Below, in pieces: positions 37,085 to 50,149 of a stretch of 64,000 nucleotides of DNA. This DNA is from an uncultured Chthoniobacteraceae bacterium. GTDB taxonomy: Bacteria; Verrucomicrobiota; Verrucomicrobiia; Chthoniobacterales; DYNR01. A program made the translations under genes and the position numbers. How positions within the stretch are numbered: the first letter of the stretch is position 1; each line of letters opens with the position of its first letter. The notes under the pieces were generated by a model that had not been told where the DNA came from, did no database searches, and worked only from the letters and a program-made list of their open reading frames with translations. Location of the stretch: the NCBI GenBank assembly GCA_964595865.1, contig CAZQRL010000006.1:71738-135737 (forward strand). The letters are read 5' to 3'.

Positions 37085-38221
37085 TCATTTTCTGCGGGAG
37101 GTGCTTTGGCGCTTGGCTGCTTTGGCAGGAGCCGCAGATGCCGGCCGGGCGGCACTGGCGCGTCTTCGGGTAGCTCCCATCTCTGGCTTCGGAGTCACCT
37201 TCCGCAGCGTCCGCCCTGGAACCCAGATGCTCTCGGTCATCATACACTTCGGCCGCTGCGGAATGCCCGATTCGTTGCGGTGTAGCTGGCCAATCACCAA
37301 ATCAATGGCAAATGCTCCCACCGTGGCATTGTTTTGGTCCATCCCACTCCAGCCTTCTAACTCCGGCGTCACATCCAGATGTAACAAGCCAATATCCTCC
37401 GGGCAGCGCAGCCCAGCTCGGCCAATCCATTCCCGGACTTCCGGATGCGTGCAAACCAACGCATCCGGTTGATAAGTCTTCAACCAACTCTGGAAATCGG
37501 CCTCTCTGTCCGCCGAGAAATCCCACGGAGGAACCCTCGCCGCCAATTCTTCCGGACGCAGCCCAGCAAAGAAACCGGCGCTGAAGCGATGGTCAATATT
37601 GGAGTCAATCGCCGGATCAATCACCAACCCAGGCCGACGATAACCCAGTTGCTGTAGCTCCCAAGCCGCGTGCATGGCGGTAGAATATTGATCGTTGCAG
37701 GCAAAGTGCAGCGTGGGGCGTTCCGGTCGCACTCCCACGACCACTGTGGCCAAATCGGACCACACAGAATCATATTTTTCAGGAATTTCCCGATGGCTGA
37801 GCACCCCGGCAATCACTCCACCACGAATACTGCGGGCGCGCAAAATCTGCCGCAGTCGACCCGGTTCTATCCCCGGCTCCTCGAGCCAGAAATCATCCAA
37901 CGCATACCCTAGCTCCTCCGCCCGCTGCCGCAAACCCTCTAGCCACCCGCGAAAAGTGGGGTTGCTTTGCAGACCGTCCCGCTCCGGCGAGGCATTGAAA
38001 ACTGCCAACGTGGCCTGAAACTTGGCGTTCTTACTGGCCCGCAGCTGCGCCATCAGATTGGACACAATCGCGTTCGCCCGATAGCCCATCTCCGCGGCAA
38101 TCCTCTGAATCCGTTCCCGGGTTTCTACCCGCAAACGCGGATCATTCCGCAAAGCCAGCGAGACCGTGGCTTTGCCCACGCCTGCCGCACGGGCAATGGC
38201 CGACATATTAGGAGAGGTCAT
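37085..38221 (-). CDS. LacI-family transcriptional regulator (divergent from glycoside hydrolase genes)
   Basis: PNMSAIARAAGVGKATVSLALRN HTH, EMGYRAN. Confidence 0.9.
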   Translation of the reverse strand: MTSPNMSAIARAAGVGKATVSLALRNDPRLRVETRERIQRIAAEMGYRANAIVSNLMAQLRASKNAKFQATLAVFNASPERDGLQSNPTFRGWLEGLRQRAEELGYALDDFWLEEPGIEPGRLRQILRARSIRGGVIAGVLSHREIPEKYDSVWSDLATVVVGVRPERPTLHFACNDQYSTAMHAAWELQQLGYRRPGLVIDPAIDSNIDHRFSAGFFAGLRPEELAARVPPWDFSADREADFQSWLKTYQPDALVCTHPEVREWIGRAGLRCPEDIGLLHLDVTPELEGWSGMDQNNATVGAFAIDLVIGQLHRNESGIPQRPKCMMTESIWVPGRTLRKVTPKPEMGATRRRASAARPASAAPAKAAKRQSTSRRK

Positions 38222-38271: not shown

Positions 38272-38322
38272 ACTGTATAACGAGTTATCCTTTGTGCAAC
38301 CAATAACTATAGCTAACGTTAT
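38272..38322. promoter_or_regulatory. Divergent promoter region with candidate LacI operators
   Basis: Palindromes ATAAC-GA-GTTAT (38277-38288) and TAACGTTA (38314-38321); minus-strand TTGCAC-16-TACAGT. Confidence 0.45.
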
Positions 38323-38434: not shown

Positions 38435-41400
38435 ATGACCTCCCCTCACCCAACGAAAACAATTCCGCGCAGCAGGATGTGGCTCTGGCCCATTCTGGTG
38501 TTGCTTTTGGCTGGGGCGGAACGGCTTTCGGCAGAGGCGATGCTGCAACTTTTCAATGTCAGTTGGTCGGAAGTGGCGCAGAAAATGCCCGAGTTAGCGG
38601 AGGCCGGATACTCTTCGCTCTGGTTGCCTCCGCCCACCAAAGGCAGTGGAGGACTCTCTGTGGGCTACGATTTGTGGGATCCCTTCGATCTCGGGAGCAT
38701 TGATCAGCGCAATACCGTTCGTACCCGTTACGGCACGGAAGCCGAGCTTTTGCACATGGTCGAAGTGGCGCACCGCTTCGGAATTCGCGTCTATTTTGAT
38801 AACATCATGAACCACCGGGCCTTCGATGTCCCGGGCTACAACGAAAACACGCCCATTGATATCTACCCCGGCATGGTGCCGGAGGATTTCCATCTTCGCA
38901 AAACTGAGGATGGCTTTTACCGCAAGTGGGACAATACCCGGGATTGGAACTCCACTTGGCAGGTGCAAAACTTAGGCCTTGCGGACCTTATTGACATCGC
39001 CCACGAGACCCCCAATGCCAACTTCGGTCCCACGGAGGGCTCGACGCACCCGAAAATCTCCTTCGTTCGCCAACCGAATAATCCGGAATATTACGACCGG
39101 CTACCCGATGGCACGTATGTCGGCTTCGGCCCGAACAATGGCATCACTCCCGCGATTATTGCCGCCAACCCCCAATTCTACACCGAGGACGTGAATGCCT
39201 ATCTCATTCGCGCCGCCCGTTGGTTGATGGACCGCACCAAGGCCGATGGCTTGCGTTTGGATGCGGTGAAGCACGTCCCGGATTACTTCTTCGGCCAACA
39301 AACCGGCAGCAACCGCAATAGCTCCAATGCCGGATACCTCGGCGGTGTCCAATGGCAATTTAACATGACCCGCGGCTTCTCCGATTGGGACAACCACCGC
39401 GATTCGGTCTTCGAAGACAAGGTTCCGCGGGATGACGCCCTGGTCTTCGGAGAGCACCTGGGCACCCCGCCCGGCTACTCTGGCTACTGGGATGCTGGAA
39501 TGCGGCTGGTGGATAATGACCTCCGCTCCAAGCTGAACGGCGTCCTCGGCAATCCGTGGGCTGGCCTGCAGGGACTCGATGCCCCCGGAGCAGGTGGCTT
39601 TCCCGCCGCCCTCGGTGTCACCCACGCCAATAGCCACGACAGTGACTACTCGGCGATGCGCCACCTGCAACATGCCATGTACTACACTCGCGAGGGGATC
39701 GGGCTGGTTTACAGCGATGGCTACTACAAAGCGGAGACCCTGGGCGAATCAGGTGGGGCCTTCCCGCGCCACGCCAATACCGCTTTCCTGGGCCAATTCG
39801 GCGATCCCCGCATCCCAAATCTTCTGCAAATTCATGAAAACTTTGCCCGCGGTCTGCAGCAGGGACTGTGGGCGGATAACGATTACCTGGCCTACGAGCG
39901 CCGGGATAATCGGCGCCCGGATGGCTCGGTGCGCTTCGGTACTGCTGCCGAAGACGTCACCATGGTTTTCATGATGAATGACAACTCGGCCTCCGGACAG
40001 GCGCGACCAATTGCCCACAGCTTCCCTGCGGGCGCTTATCTCTATCAATACGCTACCGGCCCCAATGGCTCGAACCAAGTCGGTTTCTATAAGTGGGGCA
40101 ACGAACTTGGTTCCACCGTCGTTCCGCCGGGCGGCTATTTTATCTTTGGCTATCGCACTCCCGAGCTTTCCACCCTGTGGCCCCAAGGAGCCATCACCCT
40201 TTACCAAAATGGTGTCGAGGTGAATCGTATCCGCGTCACACGCAAAGATGGTCCGGATGGCGATGCGGCTTTCAACCCTTATGGCTTGCCCAACCGCGGC
40301 TACCCATCGGGCCAGACTCCAGCTCCTTTTACCTACCAAACCACCATCCCAGTTGTAAAAGGAGGCGCCCCTCTGACCATTCTTGCTCGGGCGGATGGTT
40401 CTGCGGAAAACATCCTGCTCAAGCTGGACGGTGGGATTGATCTCAACGGCACTGTGCCCAGCGGCATTACCGATCCGGCCAAACGCGACAACCCACCCGC
40501 TCTGCGCACGGATACCTGGTTGGGCTACGAACAACCGACCTTCGTGGACCGGCAACATCCGGAAAAATTTGCCGCAGTGGATACTACGCGCTGCCAAATC
40601 GGGTCCCCAGGCGCCGAGACTTACACCAAGACCATTGGGGGAGGCTTCAGCATCAATCACGGCCCTACTGGTGCCAACAGCAGCTACGCTACCCATGGCG
40701 GGAATGTGCCATCTTGGGTTTTCCACGACCCCACTGGAGCTGTTGGGGGGCCCGAGGGGACAGCCGGAGTGGGAAGCCCCCAATTCACCGAAAACGCCAC
40801 CACCCTGCGCATTTGGGCAAAAAGTAACTCCGTCGGCGCCGGATTCAAAATGTTCGTTTACTACACGACGGATGGCTCCTTCCCCGAAGGAGCTGGCGGC
40901 ATCGGGCGTGGCACCACCCGGGTCGCCGAGATGAATTTCCAGCACAATCAGACGCCCGATGATTGGTGGGCCTCCGCAGCCATCGCCAAGCCCCCTGGCG
41001 GCACCACCTTCCGTTACAAAATCGGCCAATACAAAAACGGCCCCACGATCCAAAACTCTTGGTGGCCTGCCGATCCGGGCTCCGTCGCCTACAAAAAGAT
41101 GATGCTCACCACTTTCCGGGTGGCAGACTTCAACCCCGCCAACGTGCAGTATCACCTGCACAACGATTACAACTCTCTCACCACTGGGCTGCGGGAAGGC
41201 TTCCATGTTTTGCGCGCTAAAGCCCTCCTCAACCGCAACCCCAGCACCCAAGCCGCGCTCTACAACACCTTTACGCAGGTATTTTACTACGATGCCCAGA
41301 CCCCGCAGGGGCAAATCGCCTTCCCCGCTAACAACGGCGATACCCTTGGTGGTTCCAGCTATGAGATGGTCCTGCGCACCGACCATACGGTGCAGGAAGT

Positions 41401-44400
41401 CTGGTATCACATTGCCGACAGCGACTCTGGGAACAACGACAGCGTCACCGGCCAACCCAACGGCAACGGCGATGGGCCGGAGCCGTTCACCGATAGCAAC
41501 CGCAACGGCGTCCGCGATAGCAACGAACCGTATGTGGATTTGAACGCCAACGGTGTCTTCGATGCCTCCATGCCGCAAACTTGGGCCCGCGCCACCGAAG
41601 TCACTCCCAATCCCTCCGTGGTCAGCAGCCAGCCCCGCGAATGGCGCGTTCGCTACACCAACATCCCGCCAACCGGCAACGCCACAATCACCTTCCGCTT
41701 GCTCGAAGCCTCCTCCTCCCGCAATTTCACCCTCTCTCCCTCGGCTGGTCACTTCACCGAACTCACCCGCACCGTGCAAACCGCCGGCCCGCTGGAACGC
41801 ATCAACATCGCCTGGCCCCAGAACGATGGCGACCGCGTGGACGATAATTACGTTCTCAAGCTCTACTTCTCCAAAGCCCTGGCGGCCGGCACCTCCACAC
41901 CCGAGCTCCTACAACTTTTCACGCTTTTTGCTAATGGCCTCCCGCTCGCCCGCGATGGCTTCTCGATCAACTACGGCGATTTCGGCCCCGGCGGAAACTA
42001 CCACGAGCTCAGCATCCCCCTGCCCAACCTTTACAACGACGTGGCTGAGTTCCTACACGAGCTCAAAGTTGAATATCGCTTCCCCGCACCCGACAACCGC
42101 ATCCTACAGGCCTTCCGCCTCGTCCGGTTCAATCCTAGCACCAAGCCCTTTGTCCTCATCACCCAACCCGTCGAGCTCGGCTCCGATGGACGCCCGGTTG
42201 AAATTGTCCTTCCCGACGGCCCTGGGCCCGACGAGCTAATCTACACCATCCGTGTCAACTCCAGTGCCACCGTCGCCGCCGTCAATCTCTCGGGCTCGCC
42301 GACCTTGGACTTGCTCAACGAACCCTTCACCGACGCCAATGCCAACAGCGCCTACGATCCGGGTGAGTCCTTCACCGATACCAACGGAAATGGCGCTTGG
42401 GATGGCCCCACCGTAACGCTGTCAGGAAATAGCAAAATCTGGGACTTCCCCTGGCGTATCACCTCCCCGGGCAGCTACCTCCTCACGGCCTCGACACCCG
42501 GACCAGATCCCGTCATCACCACTCGCTCCGCCCGGGTGATCCAACGCCAGATCGTTGCCACGGATGCAAATGAATTCAACGACGATGATCATGACGGCCT
42601 GCTGGATTTCGATGAATCCACACCGAAACCCTTGCCGACCACCAACGCGGAAACTTGGACCAATGGCGATGTGCATGTGCACTTTGCCTACGGGCGCACC
42701 CAGCCCAACACGCCGGATACCGATGGCGATGGCCTTCCCGATGCTTTGGAAGTCGGCTGGCGCACTGCCGGCAACGCCACCAACACCTCGGTGGATACCA
42801 ACGGAGACGGTTTCCCGAATTTCCTCGGCGACCTCGACCCGCCTTTCTACGCCGTTCTGGAAAATCATGGGTTCGTCCCCGGCGTTGGGAGTGCCAGCCA
42901 AGGAGATAATCGCACCCGCCAAGCGGCAGGCTCCGTCACTGACCCGACCAATCCAGACACCGACGGGGATGGCATTCCCGATGGGGTTGAAGATGCCAAC
43001 CGCAACGGCTGGGTGGATGGGGACGGTCTGCCCATGCCCCGCACAGCCACCCGCTCCCAATACGCCACCCACCGGCCAAACGTGGGCGACTGGCCCAACA
43101 ACGTGCGCGATTCTTGGGAAACCTGGCAGGAAACCAGCCCGACCAAAGCAGACTCCGATGAGGATGGTCTCCTCGATGGCTTCGGCGAGGATAAAAACTT
43201 CAACGGACGGATTGATGGCGACACCAACAACAACCGCATTTACGATGCCGGTGAAGCCTGGACCGAGACCGATCCCCTCAAGGCGGATACCGATGGCGAT
43301 GGCCTGCCTGATGGTTGGGAAGTTTCCCACGGGCTCGACCCGCTCGACAATGGCACCGACAATCTGCGCACTGCCGCCGCCAATGACGGCAATCCCAGCC
43401 AAGGAGCCAACGGCGATCCCGACGGCGATGGTTTTACCAACGCGCAAGAACTGGCCGCCGGCACGCACCCCACGCAGACCAATGTCATTGGCGGCGGCGG
43501 CGGTGAGGGCACAGTCAATATCGGCACCTTCACCGATTGGACCCACCAAGACCTTCTGGCTCTGGATGAATACAACGAAGGCGGCAGCCAAGGAGCCGAC
43601 GTCTTCCGGACGAATAACTTTGATTCCAGCCGTGACATCGTCGCGTTTTCCTTCCGTGATGGCGGTGCGGTGGCCGACCAAGGGGACGGTCAGCTATACT
43701 TCCGGGTGGATTTCCACGATTTGGCCGTTCTTGCCGAACAAGGTGAGGTAGATGTTTACATCGTCATTGATACTGGCAATCCGGCTGTTGGGGAACGGGC
43801 GTTGCCGGATAATTTGGACATCGCCACCGACATGCGCTGGGAAGTGGTGGTCGGAGCCTACTCGACAAATAGCGGCAGCGTCTCGGTGGATTTGAATCGC
43901 AGCCTCAATTCCACCTCTTTCACCAACAATCCTTACAGCTTCGGAGTCGAACGCCGCGGGATCGCTGCGAACGGCCTCACGGCGATTGCCTGGTCGAATG
44001 TTTACGACGCGGTGGAAATCGCCGTCAGTCGCCAAGCCCTATTGGATGCCGGTTGGCTCGGGGACCCCAATACCCTGAACTTCCAGGTCTTTACCACCCG
44101 CGATGGCACCCAGTCCGGCGGTCCCGGCGATCTCCCGGGCCGCAATGACATCCGCGACACCATCGGCGATGATTGGTTGGCTTCGGACTACTGGAAAGAT
44201 CAGGATAATATCCGGCTCAATGGGAAGTTGACCCAATTCTTTGGACGTTCCTCCTCGAATGACCGCGGAAAATCTGCCAAAGTCATGCTTCTGGCTCATG
44301 GTAACCAAGCCATCCAGCCTGGCAGCGTCACCCAGAGCCTCATTTCCAATAATGGGACCGGTTACCTCCGCCTTCTTCAGACCCATGAGGCTTATCACGC

Positions 44401-46705
44401 TCCCCTCACCCTGCACCTGACAGCCACAACAGCCTCTGCCCTGCAGTGGGCGAAAAATCCGACCCCCGGTGCCAGCAACGATGGTCCTTCTTTCAATACC
44501 CGGTTGGCATACCTCCTGGGTAATGGGCGCGCCTCGCTGCTCGGCTCTACCTTCTCCGATCATGTGCCCAAATACTTCCCGCTAGCCTACAACGCGGCAA
44601 ATGTGGCCTTAGCCAATCAATTCCTCGACACCATCTACGGCAACGGCGCCAGCACCGCTTCCCGCAAAGCTTTCTGGGCTCCGGAACGGGTCCTGGATTC
44701 TACTTCCTTGGCGCAAATTGCCGCCCTTGGCTACACCCATACCTTTGCGGATCAAACTCGGCATTTTGTGAAGTGGTTCGGTCGCACCTCGGCCCTGGGC
44801 ACCGATGGCTTCCGGATCAACCAGGTCAATGGGGTGAAAATCTTCCCGATCCATGATTTCACTTCCGAATACCTCGACCAGGTCCGCGACGGCGGCTCCG
44901 CCCTGCCAGTGCGCGAACTCCTCTCCCGTCGGGCCCGCAGCCACATCCAAGACCAGTTGGTCGTTCTCTGGCGCGACCTTGGTGATTTCGCCAGTGCCTC
45001 TCGCGCCAATTCTTACGAGGCCAACGTGCGCTGGCTTTCCAGCCGCCCCTGGATTCGTGTGGTGACGGCCGATGACATCATTGAGCAACGGGTGGCCTAC
45101 CGCGGGCAGGACGGAAACACCTACACCAATTGGGGCACCGTGCAACGGGGCAACGGGCTCTCCTTGGTGCAAACCGCCAAGGACTGGATAGACCACGCCA
45201 CCCAAGAAAACTACGACAATTGGTATTTCGGCTCAGCTTTCGAAGAAGGTTTGGCTCCGCGCACCTTTGGCGCTTTACAGCCTTTCGGCCAAGTCGGCGT
45301 CTCCGGTCATAGCCATGCGACTTGGCAGAACCTAACGAATGTCGGTCTCTACCCCGGCCTGGCCCCGCTGGCAGGTAGCGCTTTCCACGCCGCTATGTTC
45401 CAGACTGCCTTCCACAACACCACGAATAACAACCTCAGCAAATTCAGCACAGGCGCCTACATCTTCCCAGATACCGATGCCGGGCAGACCCTCGCCGGGT
45501 TCGCCCGACAGGCCCAGTCCCAGGCGCGCTTTGCCAATGTTTTTGCGCGAGTGCAACAATGGGCTGCAAATGCCACCTCGTCCACCCTCGGCACCGAAGC
45601 GGTGGATGTGGACCTCGACGGCCAGCCCGAATATCTCCTCTATAACAGCCGTATCTTCGCTCTCTTTAAGGCCAAAGGCGGACGCATGACGGCTGCCTGG
45701 ATGCGGAATCCCTCCAACGGCAAAATCTGGCAGGTGGCGGGCAATTTTGCCTCCGCCAGCGGCAGCGATACCGATGACGAGGGAGCGTCGTCGGTTATCG
45801 GCAGCGGCCCGGCTGTGAACGCCCACCGCACTAGCGGCTTCAAGGACTGGTGGGTGGTAAACACCTCCAATGCTGGCAGCAATGCCCAGGTGAACGCCAA
45901 TTACACGGTGCAATCGGCTCCCGGCGCCACAGGCTGGACCTTCAGCCATGGCGGTGTCAGCAAGACCATACGGTTGCCCCATGCCGCCTCAGAGCGCCTC
46001 GAGGCCACCTACCAGCTCAGCGGGCTTTCCCGAGCTTATGTGCGCTTTGGGCTCTCTCCCAACCTCCTCGACCTGCTCCTCCGCGGGCAAACCGGCCTCT
46101 CCGAATCCTTCCCCTCCTCCACTCGCGTCAATGTGACCAACGTTGGTCCCCTGGATACCGTCCGCGCCTGGGTAGAGGGGCCGAGCATCAATTCCAGCGC
46201 GAGCGATTCCGCCCCTGCCATCTTCACCACCGTCGCCCGCCGGAACCAAGCTCAAACCAACCAGGTGGAAGTCGAACTGGTCGGGCCCGGACCGCATGTC
46301 ATCACCCTTGGCTTCGATCAGGGCAGCGATTTGGTCCACACCGATACCGATGGCAACGGCCTCGGCGATAGTTGGGAAATGGCGCATTTCGGTAGCTTGG
46401 GAAATTCCGCCACGGGCGATCCGGATGGTGATGGCCTCACCAACCTCCAAGAATATCTCTTCAACTCCAATCCCCACTCCGCCGCCAGTGGTCGGCCGAC
46501 TACGACCCTCAGCCAATCGGAAGCCGGCTTCTTCTTTACCTTCCCCACTCATACAGGACGCCTCTACCAACCTCAGTCCTCAGATAATCTCAGCACTTGG
46601 ACCGATCTGGGCCCGCGCCTCCCGGGCACCGGAAACGAGCAGACAGTCCTCGATCCCAGCCCGGGCCAACGCCGCTTCTACCGCGTGCTCATTTCGACTC
46701 CGTAA
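38435..46705 (+). CDS. Giant secreted multimodular alpha-glucan-active enzyme (GH13 + GH57 + DUF1926-like + Ca-binding repeats)
   Basis: Signal peptide; GH13 regions DNIMNH, GLRLDAVKH, FGEH, HANSHD; GH57-like HGNQ, FWAPER, WRDLGDF; DVDLDGQPEYLLYN beta-sandwich; many DxDGDG repeats. Confidence 0.85.
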   Translation: MTSPHPTKTIPRSRMWLWPILVLLLAGAERLSAEAMLQLFNVSWSEVAQKMPELAEAGYSSLWLPPPTKGSGGLSVGYDLWDPFDLGSIDQRNTVRTRYGTEAELLHMVEVAHRFGIRVYFDNIMNHRAFDVPGYNENTPIDIYPGMVPEDFHLRKTEDGFYRKWDNTRDWNSTWQVQNLGLADLIDIAHETPNANFGPTEGSTHPKISFVRQPNNPEYYDRLPDGTYVGFGPNNGITPAIIAANPQFYTEDVNAYLIRAARWLMDRTKADGLRLDAVKHVPDYFFGQQTGSNRNSSNAGYLGGVQWQFNMTRGFSDWDNHRDSVFEDKVPRDDALVFGEHLGTPPGYSGYWDAGMRLVDNDLRSKLNGVLGNPWAGLQGLDAPGAGGFPAALGVTHANSHDSDYSAMRHLQHAMYYTREGIGLVYSDGYYKAETLGESGGAFPRHANTAFLGQFGDPRIPNLLQIHENFARGLQQGLWADNDYLAYERRDNRRPDGSVRFGTAAEDVTMVFMMNDNSASGQARPIAHSFPAGAYLYQYATGPNGSNQVGFYKWGNELGSTVVPPGGYFIFGYRTPELSTLWPQGAITLYQNGVEVNRIRVTRKDGPDGDAAFNPYGLPNRGYPSGQTPAPFTYQTTIPVVKGGAPLTILARADGSAENILLKLDGGIDLNGTVPSGITDPAKRDNPPALRTDTWLGYEQPTFVDRQHPEKFAAVDTTRCQIGSPGAETYTKTIGGGFSINHGPTGANSSYATHGGNVPSWVFHDPTGAVGGPEGTAGVGSPQFTENATTLRIWAKSNSVGAGFKMFVYYTTDGSFPEGAGGIGRGTTRVAEMNFQHNQTPDDWWASAAIAKPPGGTTFRYKIGQYKNGPTIQNSWWPADPGSVAYKKMMLTTFRVADFNPANVQYHLHNDYNSLTTGLREGFHVLRAKALLNRNPSTQAALYNTFTQVFYYDAQTPQGQIAFPANNGDTLGGSSYEMVLRTDHTVQEVWYHIADSDSGNNDSVTGQPNGNGDGPEPFTDSNRNGVRDSNEPYVDLNANGVFDASMPQTWARATEVTPNPSVVSSQPREWRVRYTNIPPTGNATITFRLLEASSSRNFTLSPSAGHFTELTRTVQTAGPLERINIAWPQNDGDRVDDNYVLKLYFSKALAAGTSTPELLQLFTLFANGLPLARDGFSINYGDFGPGGNYHELSIPLPNLYNDVAEFLHELKVEYRFPAPDNRILQAFRLVRFNPSTKPFVLITQPVELGSDGRPVEIVLPDGPGPDELIYTIRVNSSATVAAVNLSGSPTLDLLNEPFTDANANSAYDPGESFTDTNGNGAWDGPTVTLSGNSKIWDFPWRITSPGSYLLTASTPGPDPVITTRSARVIQRQIVATDANEFNDDDHDGLLDFDESTPKPLPTTNAETWTNGDVHVHFAYGRTQPNTPDTDGDGLPDALEVGWRTAGNATNTSVDTNGDGFPNFLGDLDPPFYAVLENHGFVPGVGSASQGDNRTRQAAGSVTDPTNPDTDGDGIPDGVEDANRNGWVDGDGLPMPRTATRSQYATHRPNVGDWPNNVRDSWETWQETSPTKADSDEDGLLDGFGEDKNFNGRIDGDTNNNRIYDAGEAWTETDPLKADTDGDGLPDGWEVSHGLDPLDNGTDNLRTAAANDGNPSQGANGDPDGDGFTNAQELAAGTHPTQTNVIGGGGGEGTVNIGTFTDWTHQDLLALDEYNEGGSQGADVFRTNNFDSSRDIVAFSFRDGGAVADQGDGQLYFRVDFHDLAVLAEQGEVDVYIVIDTGNPAVGERALPDNLDIATDMRWEVVVGAYSTNSGSVSVDLNRSLNSTSFTNNPYSFGVERRGIAANGLTAIAWSNVYDAVEIAVSRQALLDAGWLGDPNTLNFQVFTTRDGTQSGGPGDLPGRNDIRDTIGDDWLASDYWKDQDNIRLNGKLTQFFGRSSSNDRGKSAKVMLLAHGNQAIQPGSVTQSLISNNGTGYLRLLQTHEAYHAPLTLHLTATTASALQWAKNPTPGASNDGPSFNTRLAYLLGNGRASLLGSTFSDHVPKYFPLAYNAANVALANQFLDTIYGNGASTASRKAFWAPERVLDSTSLAQIAALGYTHTFADQTRHFVKWFGRTSALGTDGFRINQVNGVKIFPIHDFTSEYLDQVRDGGSALPVRELLSRRARSHIQDQLVVLWRDLGDFASASRANSYEANVRWLSSRPWIRVVTADDIIEQRVAYRGQDGNTYTNWGTVQRGNGLSLVQTAKDWIDHATQENYDNWYFGSAFEEGLAPRTFGALQPFGQVGVSGHSHATWQNLTNVGLYPGLAPLAGSAFHAAMFQTAFHNTTNNNLSKFSTGAYIFPDTDAGQTLAGFARQAQSQARFANVFARVQQWAANATSSTLGTEAVDVDLDGQPEYLLYNSRIFALFKAKGGRMTAAWMRNPSNGKIWQVAGNFASASGSDTDDEGASSVIGSGPAVNAHRTSGFKDWWVVNTSNAGSNAQVNANYTVQSAPGATGWTFSHGGVSKTIRLPHAASERLEATYQLSGLSRAYVRFGLSPNLLDLLLRGQTGLSESFPSSTRVNVTNVGPLDTVRAWVEGPSINSSASDSAPAIFTTVARRNQAQTNQVEVELVGPGPHVITLGFDQGSDLVHTDTDGNGLGDSWEMAHFGSLGNSATGDPDGDGLTNLQEYLFNSNPHSAASGRPTTTLSQSEAGFFFTFPTHTGRLYQPQSSDNLSTWTDLGPRLPGTGNEQTVLDPSPGQRRFYRVLISTP
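41470..43470 (+). repeat. Asp-rich calcium-binding (thrombospondin type-3-like) peptide repeats within the giant enzyme
   Basis: EPFTDSNRNG, EPFTDANANSAYDPGESFTDTNGNG, DTDGDGLPD (x2), DTDGDGIPD, DSDEDGLLD, DPDGDGFTN; further copies at about 46340-46450. Bounds approximate. Confidence 0.75.
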
Positions 46706-46720
46706 CTTTTCTGCAAGACC

Positions 46721-49700
46721 ATGCGAAACCATCCCTCTCTCCCTCTACGACTCCCATCCCTGGGCTTTTTGAGTCTTTTGGTGTTTTGCCTCTTGGCCCT
46801 GCCCCTGCAGGCCCAGCTCGCCAATGTCTGGCACCTCCCGGCGAATACCCAAAATGGCATTCCCGCCACCATGCGCGACCCAGTCAATCCCACGCCCAAT
46901 TCCAACACCACTTTCTACCAAGGCGTCTGGAAAGGTGAGGGTGCCAACCAAACCGGTGGTTGGCTCATTTATCGCATCAACGGGGGATCCTGGCAGTCAC
47001 AGACCCTCAGCTTTCACTCCAATGTCAATGAGAACACCCAGAATCACAATCAATTCTGGAAGGCCTCCTTTGTGGTTCCCGCTACCGCCGGAGCGCAGGT
47101 AGAGTATTATTTCAAAACTACTTTCAGCAACCGCTCCGATACCTACCTCTACGGCAACAATCAGGCCACAGGGACGGAATCGGTAGCTCAAGCCTCTCCG
47201 ACCAGCTTCACCGTTGCCTATCCACCCCCCTCTCTCACCGTCAACGGCATCAACGCCAACTACTCCAAGAGCAATTTCTACATTGATGAAATCCGCGACA
47301 GCGTTTTCCCGCAGCTGAATATCGTTTTTCAACCCAACATGGGCAATCTCACGGCGGTGGAGGTTTTCACCAACCTTAACAACCGTGAGCGCGCCAATCA
47401 GGACTACAACAACGACGGACGCGAGGACGGCATTATCCCGCCCGATGGAAACTTAATCACCACCGCGGATACCGGAGCTTATTTCCGTGCCTACGCCATG
47501 CAGAATCAGGGCAATGGCACCTTTACTCTCACGCTGCCAGTGCAAAAAACCGGCGCCTACCGGCTCACCGCGCGTTTCAAAGTGAGTGGAAATCCGAATT
47601 GGATTTGGGTTGGCAGCAGTGGGTTCAGAGACCACGCCATTGTCGTAGCACCGAAAATTGCCCGCGACATGCGCATGTATGAATTGCATGTCACTAATGC
47701 CAACGCCTCCGGCCCAACGTTTGCGCAGCGCGGAACGTTTGAAGATTTGCACGATCCCACCAAGCGCGTGAACTTACAATGGCTCACTAACCTCGGAATC
47801 AACTGGATTTGGTTCCAGCCTTTCCACCCCCAAGGGCTCGAGGGGCGTCAGACCGATCCAGCGACCAGCCAACCCTACGATCCAGGCAGCCCTTATTCGA
47901 TTCGCAATTTCTGGGAAATCAACCCCCTCTACACCCGCAACTACAATGGTTCCCTGCCCAATCCGGTGTCAAACCCGACAAACTACGCCGCGGCCATGAC
48001 CGCGTTTGCGAACTTTGCCGCCGCTTCCGATCAGGCTGGAGTGCAGCTCATGCTCGACTTCCCCTTCAACCATACCGCTCCCGATGTTGTCTTGGGACAG
48101 AAGGGGGTGGAGATTTTTGCTGCTCCAGGTAACCCGGGCAATTGGCAGCCTGGCGACCTCATTCGCAATCGCGTGCCACAATTTTTCTCCACGGACGGCG
48201 GGGAAGGCCCCGCGGCTTACAGTGCTCCAGCCAATAGTGCCAATCGCATTGCCGTGGCTCCGGATCGAGATGACTTCGGCAAATGGGATGATGTCCGGGA
48301 TGTGTTCTTCGGCCGTTATGCCACCTTAGTCACGGGCTATCCCGGGCCAGAAATCAGCCGCGCCACAGTGCGCAACGAAGGCGACTGGATAGACTACAGC
48401 AGCCTGGGCAACGCCACCATTGGGGTCTGGCGTTACTTCGGTGAGGTTCTTCCCTACTGGCTGCAGCAGTCTGGACACCGTGGGTTCAACTCTACACCAG
48501 CGGATGGAAATGCTGCAGTGCGGGAGGCGCTCGATCTGGCTGGGATTGATGGATTGCGTAAGGACTTCGGCCAGGGACTTCCGCCGCAGTGCATGGAATA
48601 CATCATCAACCGCACTCACAGCGTGAAGTGGAACTTCGTTTTCATGACCGAAAGCCTTGACGGTGGCGAAGTCACCTACCGCTCCAGCAGGCACTTTGCC
48701 GTGCTTAATGAAAACATCGTTTTTCCTCTCCAAGCCGCCACGACGACTTCGGGTTATCGGAGCGTCTTTCAAGACCGCACCACGGCTTACGGTGACAGCC
48801 TTGTCCTCCTCAATAACACCTCACACGATGAGACTCCCTACAGTGACTCTTGGCAGGCTTTGATCCGTTACGCCACGGTCAGCACAAACGCTGGCTCGCC
48901 GATGATTATGTATGGCCAGGAAATTGGTGCCGGGACAAAGTTCCAAAACTCTTTGCCCCAGGGTGCTTTCGATTGGTATGAGCAGAACTTCGGCAAAGAT
49001 ATTCCACATTTCAAAAAGTGGAACTCCCTACAGCCGCAGTGGAATGCCTGGGATAACAATGCGTTCGGAGTGCAATTTCTCTACCCGGTTTATTCCGGGA
49101 TCGGCATGGCCCGGGCCTTCAGCCCCGCTTTGCGTTCCTCGCATCGGTGGTTCCTCAACCGTCAATCCGATAACCAGCCGAATCAGCAAATTTTCTCTGT
49201 GGCCAAATACAGCCAGCCCAACGCTCCGCTGCCGCAGCAAGATGTGGTTCTGGCCTTCACCAATCTCAACCGCAATGCAACTAGCGCAGATACCTTCCGA
49301 ATCCCCCAAGCCCTAGCAGATCTCATGGGGCTGAGAAATTCGGCCAATCGTACCTACAACGTGAAAAATATTGCCGCCTATCTTGGGCGAAATAATGAGC
49401 ATCCCGGTCGGCGCAGCCAATGGCTCTGGGGTAGCGGCCGCACCGGTTCCGATATTGTCAGCAACGGGGTATATGTCTCTTTGAACCCTGTTCCGACAAC
49501 GGATGGTGCCTGGGCCACTCACCCCTACGAAGCGCAGTTCCTCAAAGTTTATGATGTCACTCCGCTGCCCGCACCGAGTGCGCCGCCGCAGGTCGAAGCC
49601 TATGCCTTGGATGGGAATGTGACCTTCTCTTGGAGCCCGGTCACCGATCCCGAAGGCCTGCAACCCCTCTACAAACTCACCCTCACTCGCAGTGATAACG

Positions 49701-50149
49701 TCGTGCAGCACTTTGAAACCTCTGCCACTTCTTTCCAAGTCAGCGGGTTGCCTCCCGGCGTCACAGCCACGGCCACCATCACAACTTTGAATCCCAACAA
49801 AAACGATGTCGCCTCGTCGCCGACGAGCACCAGCTCCCCGACTCGTTCCCTGACTTCCGATGGAGATGAGGACGGCGACGGGGTGAAAAATGCCGCTGAA
49901 GTTACCGCCGGGACCGATCCTCTCAGTGCCGCCTCCCGGTTTCAAATCAATCAAGTGACTTCGGAAAACGGAGGCGGCTTCACCTTGCAGTGGCAGGCGT
50001 TCCCGGGGCGCACCTACGCAGTGGAGCGCTCTACCTCTCTCACCGAAGGTAGTTGGACGACTTTGGCTAGCGGACTCACCGCTGGCTCCTTCACAGACTC
50101 CAACCCTCCTAGCGAGAGGGCGTTCTACCGCATCCGTGCCAGCCGCTAG
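46721..50149 (+). CDS. Secreted GH13 alpha-amylase-family protein with N-terminal CBM-like and C-terminal FN3-like/sorting domains
   Basis: Signal peptide; MLDFPFNH, DGLRKDFGQG, FMTESL, NNTSHDE; DEDGDG repeat; C-terminal ...AFYRI. Confidence 0.85.
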   Translation: MRNHPSLPLRLPSLGFLSLLVFCLLALPLQAQLANVWHLPANTQNGIPATMRDPVNPTPNSNTTFYQGVWKGEGANQTGGWLIYRINGGSWQSQTLSFHSNVNENTQNHNQFWKASFVVPATAGAQVEYYFKTTFSNRSDTYLYGNNQATGTESVAQASPTSFTVAYPPPSLTVNGINANYSKSNFYIDEIRDSVFPQLNIVFQPNMGNLTAVEVFTNLNNRERANQDYNNDGREDGIIPPDGNLITTADTGAYFRAYAMQNQGNGTFTLTLPVQKTGAYRLTARFKVSGNPNWIWVGSSGFRDHAIVVAPKIARDMRMYELHVTNANASGPTFAQRGTFEDLHDPTKRVNLQWLTNLGINWIWFQPFHPQGLEGRQTDPATSQPYDPGSPYSIRNFWEINPLYTRNYNGSLPNPVSNPTNYAAAMTAFANFAAASDQAGVQLMLDFPFNHTAPDVVLGQKGVEIFAAPGNPGNWQPGDLIRNRVPQFFSTDGGEGPAAYSAPANSANRIAVAPDRDDFGKWDDVRDVFFGRYATLVTGYPGPEISRATVRNEGDWIDYSSLGNATIGVWRYFGEVLPYWLQQSGHRGFNSTPADGNAAVREALDLAGIDGLRKDFGQGLPPQCMEYIINRTHSVKWNFVFMTESLDGGEVTYRSSRHFAVLNENIVFPLQAATTTSGYRSVFQDRTTAYGDSLVLLNNTSHDETPYSDSWQALIRYATVSTNAGSPMIMYGQEIGAGTKFQNSLPQGAFDWYEQNFGKDIPHFKKWNSLQPQWNAWDNNAFGVQFLYPVYSGIGMARAFSPALRSSHRWFLNRQSDNQPNQQIFSVAKYSQPNAPLPQQDVVLAFTNLNRNATSADTFRIPQALADLMGLRNSANRTYNVKNIAAYLGRNNEHPGRRSQWLWGSGRTGSDIVSNGVYVSLNPVPTTDGAWATHPYEAQFLKVYDVTPLPAPSAPPQVEAYALDGNVTFSWSPVTDPEGLQPLYKLTLTRSDNVVQHFETSATSFQVSGLPPGVTATATITTLNPNKNDVASSPTSTSSPTRSLTSDGDEDGDGVKNAAEVTAGTDPLSAASRFQINQVTSENGGGFTLQWQAFPGRTYAVERSTSLTEGSWTTLASGLTAGSFTDSNPPSERAFYRIRASR

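What the first reader, a model, noticed from the sequence alone, without database searches (positions are those of the whole stretch)
38435..46705. 2756-aa secreted protein joining two unrelated alpha-glucanase folds (GH13 + GH57)
Seen: one ORF has a signal peptide and an N-terminal GH13 domain with all four conserved regions and the D/E/D triad. About 1500 residues later there is a GH57-like domain: HGNQ, FWAPER (candidate nucleophile Glu, about 44680), WRDLGDF (candidate acid/base Asp, about 44975). Then comes DVDLDGQPEYLLYNSRIF, resembling the C-terminal beta-sandwich of GH57 4-alpha-glucanotransferases. Between them lie Ig/CBM-like modules, a DOMON-like segment and many Ca-binding repeats. 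Known: GH13 is a (beta/alpha)8 barrel, GH57 is (beta/alpha)7, and GH57 enzymes are usually cytoplasmic or archaeal extracellular. Inference: a single-chain, cellulosome-like alpha-glucan machine combining hydrolysis with debranching or transglycosylation. I do not know of a characterised enzyme with this architecture.
Basis: partly seen in the sequence, partly recalled or inferred. Interest (0 to 1): 0.82.

Follow-up and report, generated by a model that had tools for sequence, protein, structure and literature searches.

The report
Giant secreted GH13 plus GH57-like amylase
This is a real, conserved 2756-residue secreted protein of a Verrucomicrobiota bacterium that joins an intact alpha-amylase (GH13) head, through a long stalk, to a very divergent second starch-enzyme module of the GH57 type; nobody has characterised this protein, but it combines two known enzyme kinds rather than being a new kind of system.

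Summary
ORF 38435-46705 (+) encodes 2756 aa with a signal-peptide-like N-terminus and a GH13 alpha-amylase domain with its full catalytic triad (D276/E340/D401).

- **Stalk:** a chain of Ig-like beta-sandwiches is followed by a block of TSP3 calcium-binding repeats.
- **C-terminal unit (about 940 aa):** AlphaFold2 models it confidently (pLDDT 88). Its best structural and profile match is the Thermococcus litoralis GH57 4-alpha-glucanotransferase.
- **Candidate catalytic residues:** They are invariant in the query's clade (37 genome loci). More distant clades often lack the Asp.
- **Not a chimera:** more than 600 homologues and 65 genome loci are collinear, including two isolates and a closed chromosome.
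- **Edge of GH57:** the module scores below Pfam's cut-off here, and the signature residues of conserved regions 2, 4 (the second acidic residue) and 5 are replaced.
- **Unsupported claims:** "cellulosome-like" and "DOMON-like".

Whether the second head is catalytically active is inferred, at about 55%. I rate this a new variant of a known kind, of moderate interest.

The parts
37085..38221 (-). Divergently transcribed LacI-family regulator (378 aa), a candidate sugar-responsive regulator of the two-gene cassette
   Evidence: Pfam LacI scores 1.1e-12 and Peripla_BP_3 scores 5.4e-9. A homologue sits in the same upstream position in the closest relatives L001, L003, L004, L006, L029 and L040.
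38435..38533 (+). Signal-peptide-like N-terminus (aa 1-33); an alternative start is M15 at 38477
   Evidence: It has a basic n-region, a hydrophobic core at aa 15-27 and an LSA/EA motif, and it is the only hydrophobic stretch in the protein. The public gene call for the identical protein, P0003, is 2742 aa, which corresponds to a start at M15.
38540..40204 (+). GH13 alpha-amylase head (aa ~36-590) with catalytic D276 (39260-39262), E340 (39452-39454) and D401 (39635-39637)
   Evidence: Searches identify it. It is the most conserved part across orthologues: 79-84% identity in near relatives and 55-66% in distant ones. The GLRLDAVKH, FGEHLG and SHD motifs are nearly invariant in 30 giant homologues.
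40202..42574 (+). Stalk of Ig/cadherin-like beta-sandwich domains (aa ~590-1380)
   Evidence: The AF2 model mbbfc0f2ce79e has pLDDT 84 and is all-beta. Its top Foldseek hits are PrgB Ig-like domains, cadherin ectodomains, an RTX adhesin and S-layer proteins.
42572..43489 (+). Block of bacterial thrombospondin type-3 (TSP3) calcium-binding repeats (aa ~1380-1685)
   Evidence: PF18884 scores 33.9 bits against a cut-off of 25. The NCBIfam CglD model aligns to aa 1382-1604. The DxDxDG motifs are listed.
43508..44254 (+). Family-specific beta-sandwich (aa 1692-1940) that always precedes the GH57-like barrel; a candidate binding module of unknown function
   Evidence: It is present in the consensus of standalone and fused family members. 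It is beta-rich in AF2 model residues 1-250. It has no Pfam family; one relative gives a sub-threshold Glucodextran_C hit.
44267..45574 (+). GH57-like (beta/alpha)7 barrel plus helical region (aa ~1945-2380), with candidate nucleophile E2084 (44684-44686) and candidate proton donor D2181 (44975-44977)
   Evidence: The family profile hits 1K1W at E = 5e-6 and aligns PERV with WLTERV. Foldseek ranks 1k1x first at E = 5.8e-20. The model has seven barrel strands, with E2084 just after strand 4 and D2181 as the last residue of strand 7.
45587..46324 (+). C-terminal beta-sandwich (aa ~2385-2630), equivalent to domain II of the T. litoralis 4-alpha-glucanotransferase; it begins with the invariant loop DVDLDGxxE
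   Evidence: HMMER aligns it to 1K1W residues 387-418. AF2 shows strands at model positions 696-940. One family member hits PF09095 AmyA-gluTrfs_C. D2391, D2395 and E2399 are 100% conserved.
46337..46705 (+). Two TSP3 repeats plus a ~70-aa terminal beta domain ending ...RFYRV...P; a candidate surface-retention or sorting tag
   Evidence: It is shared with the next gene's product (35% identity over 97 aa). It lies at the extreme C-terminus of 8 large proteins in this 2.77-Mb genome.
46721..50149 (+). Downstream partner gene (1142 aa) starting 15 nt after the stop: a divergent GH13-like protein with fn3, TSP3 and the same C-terminal tag
   Evidence: describe it. A homologue lies immediately downstream in most related loci.

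Best explanation
The gene encodes a secreted, probably cell-surface-retained, two-headed alpha-glucan enzyme.

**Shown**
- An intact GH13 alpha-amylase head of the liquefying-amylase type is present.
- About 800 residues of Ig-like beta-sandwiches and about 300 residues of calcium-binding TSP3 repeats form a stalk.
- A ~940-residue tail unit follows. It consists of a family-specific beta-sandwich, a (beta/alpha)7 barrel with a helical region, and a C-terminal beta-sandwich.
- This tail unit is a deep, uncharacterised branch of the GH57 fold. It is closest to 4-alpha-glucanotransferases of the Thermococcus litoralis type.

**Inferred**
- The GH13 head cuts extracellular starch or glycogen endo-wise.
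- In this clade the tail is a working retaining enzyme, with E2084 as nucleophile and D2181 as acid/base. It most likely acts on alpha-1,4-glucan chains by disproportionation (transglycosylation) or a second hydrolytic specificity, on the substrate held by the same molecule.
- The terminal TSP3 + beta-domain tag keeps the protein at the cell surface.
- The LacI-type regulator upstream and the divergent GH13-like gene 15 nt downstream form one starch-utilisation cassette with it.
For: **Real and conserved**
- 632 homologues of ~2750-2900 aa carry PF00128 + PF03065 + TSP3.
- In 65 genome loci all modules are collinear wherever the contig reaches. These include Cerasicoccus arenae KCTC 12870, Brevifollis gellanilyticus NBRC 108608 and the closed chromosome OZ239145.1.

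**GH13 head:**

**GH57 relationship**
- The family profile hits only 1K1W among solved structures (E = 5e-6). It aligns FWxPERV with WLTERV (E123) and DVDLDGxxE with residues 387-418.
- The AF2 model has pLDDT 88 and pTM 0.87.
- Foldseek ranks 1k1x first (5.8e-20), then GH38 enzymes and other GH57 enzymes.
- 10 of 27 family members pass or approach PF03065, with a best E of 3.5e-14.
- hhalign to this genome's own canonical GH57 aligns CSR-1 to CSR-3.
- CSR-3 FWAPERV equals the W[VI]PERV signature of bacterial 4-alpha-glucanotransferases. The proton donor is the third residue of CSR-4 (GDDGEKFG), which corresponds to D2181 in WRDLGDF.

**Active-site conservation**
- In 127 GH13-fused homologues: E2084 is kept in 126, D2181 in 114, H1955, N1957 and H1994 in 126 each, D2106 in 127, H2110 in 126 and D2152 in 125.
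- LWRDxxDF is invariant in all 37 genome loci at 58% identity or more.
- Conserved polar residues sit at or just after the C-terminal ends of barrel strands 1, 2, 4, 5, 6 and 7.

**Alpha-glucan context**
- Relatives of the tail unit occur in other secreted proteins beside CBM53, CBM25 and canonical GH57 domains.
- Some occur beside the Ig-like N-terminal domain of alpha-glucan water dikinase.
- A GH13-like gene is conserved downstream.
Against: - No activity of any family member is known. All named homologues are called 'hypothetical' or 'alpha-amylase family'.
- In this protein PF03065 is below its cut-off (13.9-18.8 against 21.2 bits).
- The family HMM does not detect the three canonical GH57 proteins of the same genome.
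- The CSR-2 Glu is Ser (S2034). The CSR-4 Glu two residues after the donor is Gly (G2183). The T. litoralis D354 equivalent is Gln (Q2323).
- More distant GH13-fused clades (43-49% identity) have N, S, W, P, Q or G at the proton-donor position. A few have also eroded CSR-1 and CSR-3. The module can therefore persist without the canonical dyad.
- The tail evolves faster than the GH13 head.
- The equivalence D2181 = D214 rests on motif and strand position.
Confidence: 0.55

Rival explanations
1. Only the GH13 head is an enzyme. The GH57-derived tail is a non-catalytic alpha-glucan-binding or scaffolding module, a 'GH57-like' protein in the sense of the incomplete-machinery groups described for GH57. 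It holds the polymer or organises the protein at the cell surface.
For: - Sister clades of the same giant family keep the module while replacing the proton-donor Asp, and in a few MAGs CSR-1 and CSR-3 as well.
- The signature residues of CSR-2, CSR-4 (second acid) and CSR-5 are replaced in the query.
- Its Pfam score is below the cut-off.
- The tail is less conserved than the GH13 head.
- Groups of GH57 homologues lacking catalytic residues are documented (PMC6037648).
Against: - In the query's own clade E2084 and D2181 are invariant over 37 genomes down to 58% identity.
- A set of polar residues at the barrel's strand ends is also invariant: H1955, N1957, H1994, R2085, D2106, H2110 and D2152. 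This is hard to explain for a pure binding module.
- Bacterial 4-alpha-glucanotransferases also lack the Asp at the CSR-5 position (GQCNCPYWH), so Q2323 does not disqualify the module.
Confidence: 0.3
2. The tail is catalytic but not on alpha-1,4-glucan. It could have another retaining specificity found in the GH57/GH38 fold (alpha-galactosidase-like or alpha-mannosidase-like), or an unusual chemistry with a different acid (D2184).
For: - CSR-1 HGNQA resembles the HGNLQ of GH57 alpha-galactosidases more than the HNHQP of glucanotransferases.
- GH38 mannosidases are strong fold matches (8e-13).
- An acidic residue at position 2184 is more widely conserved among the giants (124 of 127) than D2181.
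Against: - The best profile and fold match is the 4-alpha-glucanotransferase, and CSR-3 is its signature.
- Relatives co-occur with the starch-binding modules CBM53 and CBM25 and with amylase domains.
- The cassette is otherwise all GH13.
Confidence: 0.12
3. The ORF is an assembly chimera, or a read-through of two genes joined by a sequencing error.
For: None was found.
Against: - The same head-stalk-tail order, at the same length, appears in 632 proteins and 65 independent genomes.
- These include two cultured isolates and one closed chromosome.
- There is no stop or frame break.
Confidence: 0.01

Closest known systems
GH57 4-alpha-glucanotransferase of Thermococcus litoralis (PDB 1K1W/1K1X/1K1Y) and bacterial GH57 4-alpha-glucanotransferases
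   Same: - It has a (beta/alpha)7 barrel, a helical region and a C-terminal beta-sandwich.
- The CSR-3 signature W-x-P-E-R-V carries the nucleophile Glu.
- An Asp sits at the third position of CSR-4, at the end of strand 7.
- A DVDxDGxxE loop opens the C-domain.
- It is the best Foldseek and HMMER match.
   Different: - Sequence identity is about 12%.
- CSR-1 reads HGNQA rather than HNHQP.
- CSR-2 lacks Glu.
- CSR-4 reads WRDLGDF rather than xDDGEKFG.
- CSR-5 is unrecognisable apart from the His.
- An extra N-terminal beta-sandwich is present.
- The module is secreted and embedded in a 2756-aa protein, whereas the known enzymes are ~650-730-aa stand-alone proteins.
'4-alpha-glucanotransferase-like' and other GH57 'like' groups with incomplete catalytic machinery (Martinovicova & Janecek 2018, PMC6037648)
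   Same: They are bacterial GH57 relatives with divergent conserved regions. Sister clades of the giant family lack the proton donor in the same way.
   Different: - Those proteins average 623 aa and stand alone.
- The Verrucomicrobiota entries found by term search in that paper's table (Akkermansia, Opitutaceae TAV5) are 395-479-aa stand-alone proteins. None is a giant.
- The query itself retains both catalytic residues.
Liquefying-type GH13 alpha-amylases (Halothermothrix orenii AmyB 3BC9, Pyrococcus woesei 1MWO, Bacillus licheniformis 1BLI/1VJS)
   Same: The head shares all four conserved regions and the Asp/Glu/Asp triad. E-values to these structures range from 6e-28 to 1e-19.
   Different: It falls below the NCBIfam equivalog cut-offs (137.7 against 516 bits). 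It has long insertions between region I and region II. It is attached to 2200 further residues.
Multi-catalytic secreted amylolytic enzymes, such as two-domain GH13 amylase-pullulanases (named from general knowledge, not tested here)
   Same: One secreted polypeptide carries two alpha-glucan-active catalytic modules separated by non-catalytic domains and is retained at the cell surface.
   Different: Those enzymes combine two modules of the same clan (GH13 + GH13). Here two unrelated folds are joined: a (beta/alpha)8 GH13 and a (beta/alpha)7 GH57-like module. I found no described example of this.

Membership tests
GH13 (alpha-amylase family) | Conserved regions I-IV with the catalytic Asp (nucleophile), Glu (acid/base) and Asp (transition-state stabiliser) | tested here: met
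   The regions read FDNIMNH, GLRLD276AVKH, FGE340HLG and NSHD401 directly in the sequence. They are nearly invariant in 30 homologues.
GH13 (alpha-amylase family) | Significant match to the curated family model and to solved (beta/alpha)8 GH13 structures | tested here: met
   PF00128 scores 41 bits against a cut-off of 22. The match to 3bc9 is 5.7e-28 with the single sequence and 7.8e-35 with a profile. The barrel itself was not modelled here.
GH57 | Catalytic (beta/alpha)7 'incomplete TIM' barrel followed by a helical bundle | tested here: met
   The AF2 model (pLDDT 88) has seven barrel strands followed by helices at model positions 493-690. The top Foldseek hits are GH57 1k1x, 1ufa, 3p0b, 7e1y and 5wu7.
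GH57 | Catalytic nucleophile Glu in CSR-3 at strand beta4 | tested here: met
   E2084 in FWAPERV aligns with E123 of 1K1W. It lies just after strand 4 in the model. It is conserved in 126 of 127 fused homologues and in all full-length standalone ones.
GH57 | Proton-donor Asp as the third residue of CSR-4 at strand beta7 | tested here: met
   D2181 is the third residue of WRDLGDF and the last residue of strand 7. It is invariant in the query's clade. No 3D superposition was possible. The Asp is absent in many giants at 43-49% identity.
GH57 | All five conserved sequence regions recognisable | tested here: not met
   CSR-3 is typical and CSR-1 (HGNQA) is partly so. CSR-2 has Ser in place of Glu. 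CSR-4 lacks the DGEKFG part. CSR-5 retains only the His.
GH57 | Score above the curated Pfam gathering threshold (PF03065, 21.2 bits) | tested here: not met
   The score is 13.9 bits for the whole protein, 16 bits for the cut-out unit and 18.8 bits in the genome search. Ten of 27 family members match at E ≤ 0.01, the best at 3.5e-14.
GH57 4-alpha-glucanotransferase type | C-terminal beta-sandwich domain (Pfam AmyA-gluTrfs_C) | tested here: inconclusive
   A beta-sandwich is modelled at model positions 696-940. HMMER aligns the DVDLDG..E loop to 1K1W residues 387-418, but only weakly. PF09095 is hit by just one family member, at E = 0.0033.
GH119 (the GH57-related alpha-amylase family) | Sequence similarity to Bacillus circulans IgtZ | not testable with these tools
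   No GH119 sequence or model was available in the libraries. The defining paper is not in the searchable library.
Cellulosome-type assembly | Dockerin and cohesin modules | tested here: not met
   No dockerin or cohesin family appears at E ≤ 0.1 in Pfam. The acidic repeats match TSP3_bac instead.
DOMON / CBM9-like superfamily (claimed for aa 1692-1940) | Match to a family model of the superfamily | tested here: inconclusive
   The query segment has no such hit at E ≤ 10. One distant homologue hits Glucodextran_C at E = 0.038, below the cut-off. The domain could not be fold-searched on its own.
Bacterial TSP3 repeat (PF18884) | Score above the gathering threshold | tested here: met
   The score is 33.9 bits against a cut-off of 25, over 3 stretches. 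The motifs are listed.

The most novel reading that the evidence does not exclude
The ~940-aa tail unit (beta-sandwich + barrel + C-domain) would be an active member of an undescribed glycoside hydrolase or transglycosylase lineage at the edge of GH57, either a new subfamily or a sister family.
- Only about 335 cluster representatives exist among 1.8 billion proteins.
- The lineage is spread over Verrucomicrobiota, Planctomycetota, Sumerlaeia and T9SS-bearing bacteria.
- It would serve as an interchangeable 'second head' beside GH13 or canonical GH57 heads and starch-binding modules.
- In this clade it would work in cis with the amylase, remodelling extracellular alpha-glucan (for example by disproportionating or cyclising the amylase's products) before uptake.
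Probability: 0.3. Interest if true: 0.7.

Novelty: new variant of a known kind. Interest (0 to 1): 0.48.

Why it matters
If both heads work, this would be the first enzyme known to join the two unrelated alpha-amylase folds (GH13 and GH57) in one chain. It would define a new GH57-related subfamily that is widespread in freshwater and soil Verrucomicrobiota, which are major degraders of algal and cyanobacterial storage glucans.

The family also offers a natural experiment. Clades that keep the canonical proton donor and clades that have lost it can be compared directly, to ask whether the GH57 fold can work with a relocated acid or has become a binding module.

In practical terms, current annotation names these proteins only 'alpha-amylase family' or 'hypothetical' and misses the second module.

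Tried and rejected
- **Single-sequence searches:** the tail alone found nothing in the PDB. Pfam gave only a sub-threshold hit. A family profile was needed.
- **The search for related loci:** I used the single protein instead.
- **Read-level chimera test:** Comparative collinearity was used in its place.
- **Own-genome GH57 check:** the family HMM against this genome's three canonical GH57 proteins gave no hit. hhalign reached only CSR-1 to CSR-3, at 45% probability. CSR-4 equivalence therefore rests on motif and strand position.
- **aa 1692-1940:** the Pfam scan at E ≤ 10 gave nothing usable.
- **CBM search:** a whole-protein profile search of the PDB returned only GH13 entries. A Foldseek search of the stalk model returned only generic Ig/cadherin-like folds.
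- **Operator search:** a LacI-type operator was looked for in the intergenic region. TAAC..GTTA palindromes occur at 38278-38321 but are not conserved in ten related loci, so this was dropped.
- **A recollection corrected:** I first recalled that GH57 'amylopullulanase-cyclomaltodextrinases' were GH13 fusions. The paper shows they are ~529-aa single-domain GH57 proteins, so they are not a precedent.
- **GH119:** membership could not be tested.
Full report
**1. The observation**

The ORF listing and translate give one uninterrupted frame, 38435..46705 (+), of 2756 aa.
- HGNQ at aa 1955.
- FWAPER at aa 2080, so E2084 is encoded at nt 44684-44686.
- WRDLGDF at aa 2179, so D2181 is encoded at nt 44975-44977.
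- DVDLDGQPEY at aa 2391.

The N-terminus looks like a Sec signal. It has K8, R12 and R14, then a hydrophobic core at aa 15-27, then LSA/EA. No other hydrophobic stretch exists in the protein. SignalP was not available, so this rests on the sequence alone. The public gene call for the identical protein, P0003, is 2742 aa, which corresponds to a start at M15.

**2. The GH13 head**

- The four conserved regions and the triad read directly: FDNIMNH, GLRLD276AVKH, FGE340HLG and NSHD401.
- Pfam PF00128 is above its cut-off (41 against 22 bits).
- NCBIfam alpha-amylase models of the PRK09441 group match at 4e-40 but stay below their equivalog cut-offs.
- The nearest solved structures are Halothermothrix orenii AmyB, the Pyrococcus woesei amylase and the Bacillus liquefying amylases.
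- This head is the best-conserved part of the protein across orthologues.

**3. The stalk**

An AlphaFold2 model of aa 590-1390 (30-sequence alignment, pLDDT 84) is a chain of beta-sandwiches. Their Foldseek neighbours are PrgB Ig-like domains, cadherins, an RTX adhesin and S-layer proteins. These are Ig-like spacer domains. No recognised starch-binding module was found in this protein.

aa ~1380-1685 are bacterial TSP3 calcium-binding repeats, with PF18884 above its cut-off. There are nine full DxDxDGxxDxxE-type motifs. No dockerin or cohesin matched, so 'cellulosome-like' is not supported.

**4. The tail is a GH57-fold unit**

- Alone, the sequence gives nothing in the PDB. PF03065 scores only 13.9 bits against a cut-off of 21.2.
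- An exhaustive phmmer search of 1.84 billion cluster representatives found only 335 relatives. The module is therefore not an ordinary GH57.
- A 27-sequence family profile (A1) hits one solved protein with a credible score, the T. litoralis GH57 4-alpha-glucanotransferase 1K1W (E = 5e-6). The two other listed matches (E = 0.22 and 0.59) are unrelated proteins. The profile aligns FWxPERV with WLTERV (nucleophile E123) and DVDLDGxxE with residues 387-418 of its C-domain.
- AlphaFold2 on aa 1690-2630 gave pLDDT 88 and pTM 0.87. The model shows an N-terminal beta-sandwich, seven barrel strands, a helical region and a C-terminal beta-sandwich.
- Foldseek against the PDB ranks 1k1x first (5.8e-20). 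GH38 mannosidases follow, then GH57 branching enzymes and amylopullulanases.
- Ten of 27 family members match PF03065 (best 3.5e-14), and one matches AmyA-gluTrfs_C.
That test is therefore not met.

**5. Catalytic residues**

In GH57 the nucleophile Glu lies in CSR-3 at strand beta4. The proton donor is the third residue of CSR-4 at strand beta7 (PMC6037648). The paper's table gives W[VI]PERV and GDDGEKFG for bacterial 4-alpha-glucanotransferases.

In the model, E2084 follows strand 4 and D2181 is the last residue of strand 7. Standalone relatives read FDDWEAYAG at this place, which is clearly GH57-like. The query reads WRDLGDF, so D2181 occupies the donor position.

Conservation among 127 GH13-fused homologues:

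| Residue | Conserved in |
|---|---|
| E2084 | 126 |
| D2181 | 114 |
| H1955, N1957, H1994 | 126 each |
| D2106 | 127 |
| H2110 | 126 |
| D2152 | 125 |

That sample is weighted towards close relatives, so I split 65 genome loci by identity:
- All 37 loci at 58% identity or more keep AH[GA]NQ, [FY]WxxER[VI] and L-x-[RK]-D-x-x-DF (LWRDxxDF in 30 of them).
- The clades at 43-49% identity show N, S, W, P, Q or G at the donor position in many cases. They usually keep an acid two or three residues later (…WEEF, …WEDF).
- Four MAGs have also eroded CSR-1 and CSR-3.

The query's clade therefore has the complete canonical dyad. The family as a whole shows that the module can be kept without it.

Other GH57 signature residues are replaced in the query:
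- The CSR-2 Glu is S2034.
- The Glu two residues after the donor is G2183, with D2184 next to it.
- The T. litoralis D354 equivalent is Q2323.

Bacterial 4-alpha-glucanotransferases also lack that last Asp, so Q2323 is not disqualifying. I could not superpose coordinates, so the geometry of the dyad is untested.

**6. Not a chimera, and an old fusion**

- The search for homologous proteins returned 632 proteins. Those listed are mostly 2750-2900 aa and carry PF00128 + PF03065 + TSP3. They come from Terrimicrobiaceae, Chthoniobacterales, Opitutaceae, 'Luteolibacter' and Methylacidiphilales MAGs.
- In 65 genome loci all five blocks (head, stalk, TSP3, beta-sandwich, GH57-like) are collinear wherever the contig reaches.
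- These loci include Cerasicoccus arenae KCTC 12870, Brevifollis gellanilyticus NBRC 108608 and the closed chromosome OZ239145.1.

**7. Context**

- A LacI-family regulator is transcribed divergently upstream. It is conserved there in the closest relatives.
- Fifteen nucleotides after the stop begins a 1142-aa divergent GH13-like protein with fn3, TSP3 and the same C-terminal ~95 aa. A homologue follows the giant gene in most genomes.
- The genes further downstream are housekeeping (tpiA, ftsH).
- The C-terminal tag ends eight large proteins of this 2.77-Mb genome. One is a secreted 1106-aa canonical GH57. Secreted GH57 enzymes are therefore normal in this organism.
- Elsewhere the tail unit is found in other secreted multi-domain proteins. 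One carries a canonical GH57 domain, two CBM53 and a CBM25. Another carries a canonical GH57 domain and a type IX secretion signal. Two members carry the Ig-like N-terminal domain of alpha-glucan water dikinase. This association supports an alpha-glucan substrate.

**8. Mechanism**

Shown: the architecture, the folds and the conserved residues.

Inferred:
- The GH13 head is an endo-amylase on extracellular starch or glycogen.
- The Ig/TSP3 stalk spaces the two heads.
- The tail, in this clade, is a retaining enzyme (E2084/D2181) acting on alpha-1,4 chains, most likely as a transglycosylase or second hydrolase.
- The C-terminal tag retains the protein at the surface.

I put about 55% on an active second head, 30% on a non-catalytic binding or scaffold role and about 12% on a different substrate or chemistry.

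**9. Comparison with what is known, and novelty**

- The closest known proteins are the T. litoralis-type GH57 4-alpha-glucanotransferases for the tail and the liquefying GH13 amylases for the head.
- The tail meets the fold and dyad criteria of GH57. It fails the 'five conserved regions' criterion and the Pfam threshold. I therefore file it as GH57-related, at the edge of the family, and not as a plain member.
- GH119 could not be tested.
- Full-text searches found no description of a GH13 + GH57 polypeptide.
- The 2018 census of 1602 GH57 sequences contains no such giant among the Verrucomicrobiota entries I could find.
- Earlier reports of this scan describe the same family in other genomes, mostly with the proton donor missing. 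Here it is present, and my clade split reconciles the two results.
- Verdict: a real, uncharacterised fusion of two known enzyme kinds with a divergent second head. It is a new variant of a known kind, of moderate interest.

Noticed in passing
window 46337-46705 and 49850-50149; genome contigs C1, C4, C5, C8, C9, C11: A TSP3 pair plus a ~70-aa terminal beta domain ending ...RFYR(V/I)...P closes eight large proteins (835-2967 aa) of this 2.77-Mb genome. It looks like a lineage-specific sorting or surface-retention tag.
   Followed up: partly
G000:C1, minus strand, about 86.4-89.7 kb (locus L070): A 1106-aa secreted canonical GH57 reads HNHQP, FFPTEMAF and STDGDNAW. It also carries fn3 and the same C-terminal tag. 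Two cytoplasmic-looking GH57 proteins of 530 and 545 aa lie on C3 and C8. The genome therefore holds four GH57-type genes.
   Followed up: partly
window 46721-50149: The downstream 1142-aa protein has only weak GH13 similarity (PF00128 E = 0.016; 4gkl at 6e-5) and unusual conserved regions. It is nevertheless conserved next to the giant gene in most genomes.
   Followed up: partly
L051, L054, L059, L061 (Verrucomicrobiaceae and Prosthecobacter MAGs): In these orthologues the GH57-like unit has eroded CSR-1 (IQENRP), CSR-3 (PPPESV, PAPELS, APPEQA) and CSR-4 (GSGWTDF), while the GH13 head stays intact. The tail is probably catalytically dead there.
   Followed up: partly
P0194 (2400 aa) and P0188 (3459 aa), metagenomic proteins: The same GH57-like tail unit is combined with a canonical N-terminal GH57 domain, CBM53 x2 and CBM25 in P0194. 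In P0188 it is combined with a canonical GH57 domain, fn3/Big_7 domains and a type IX secretion CHU_C signal. The unit therefore behaves as a movable 'second head'.
   Followed up: partly
window 38278-38321: Three TAAC..GTTA palindromes lie in the LacI/giant-gene intergenic region: TAACGAGTTA, TAACTATAGCTAACGTTA and TAACGTTA. They are candidate operators but are not conserved in ten related loci.
   Followed up: yes
P0013 and L058 (public records): Homologues labelled 'Gloeobacteraceae cyanobacterium' (P0013) and 'Blastochloridaceae' (L058) sit among Verrucomicrobiota sequences at 73% (P0013) and 46% (L058) identity. They are probably mis-binned contigs rather than transfers.
   Followed up: no
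window 45605-45631 (aa 2391-2399): The loop DVDLDGxxE is invariant across the whole family and is shared with T. litoralis (DVDFDGRAE). It has the form of a calcium-binding DxDxDG site at the start of the C-terminal beta-sandwich.
   Followed up: no
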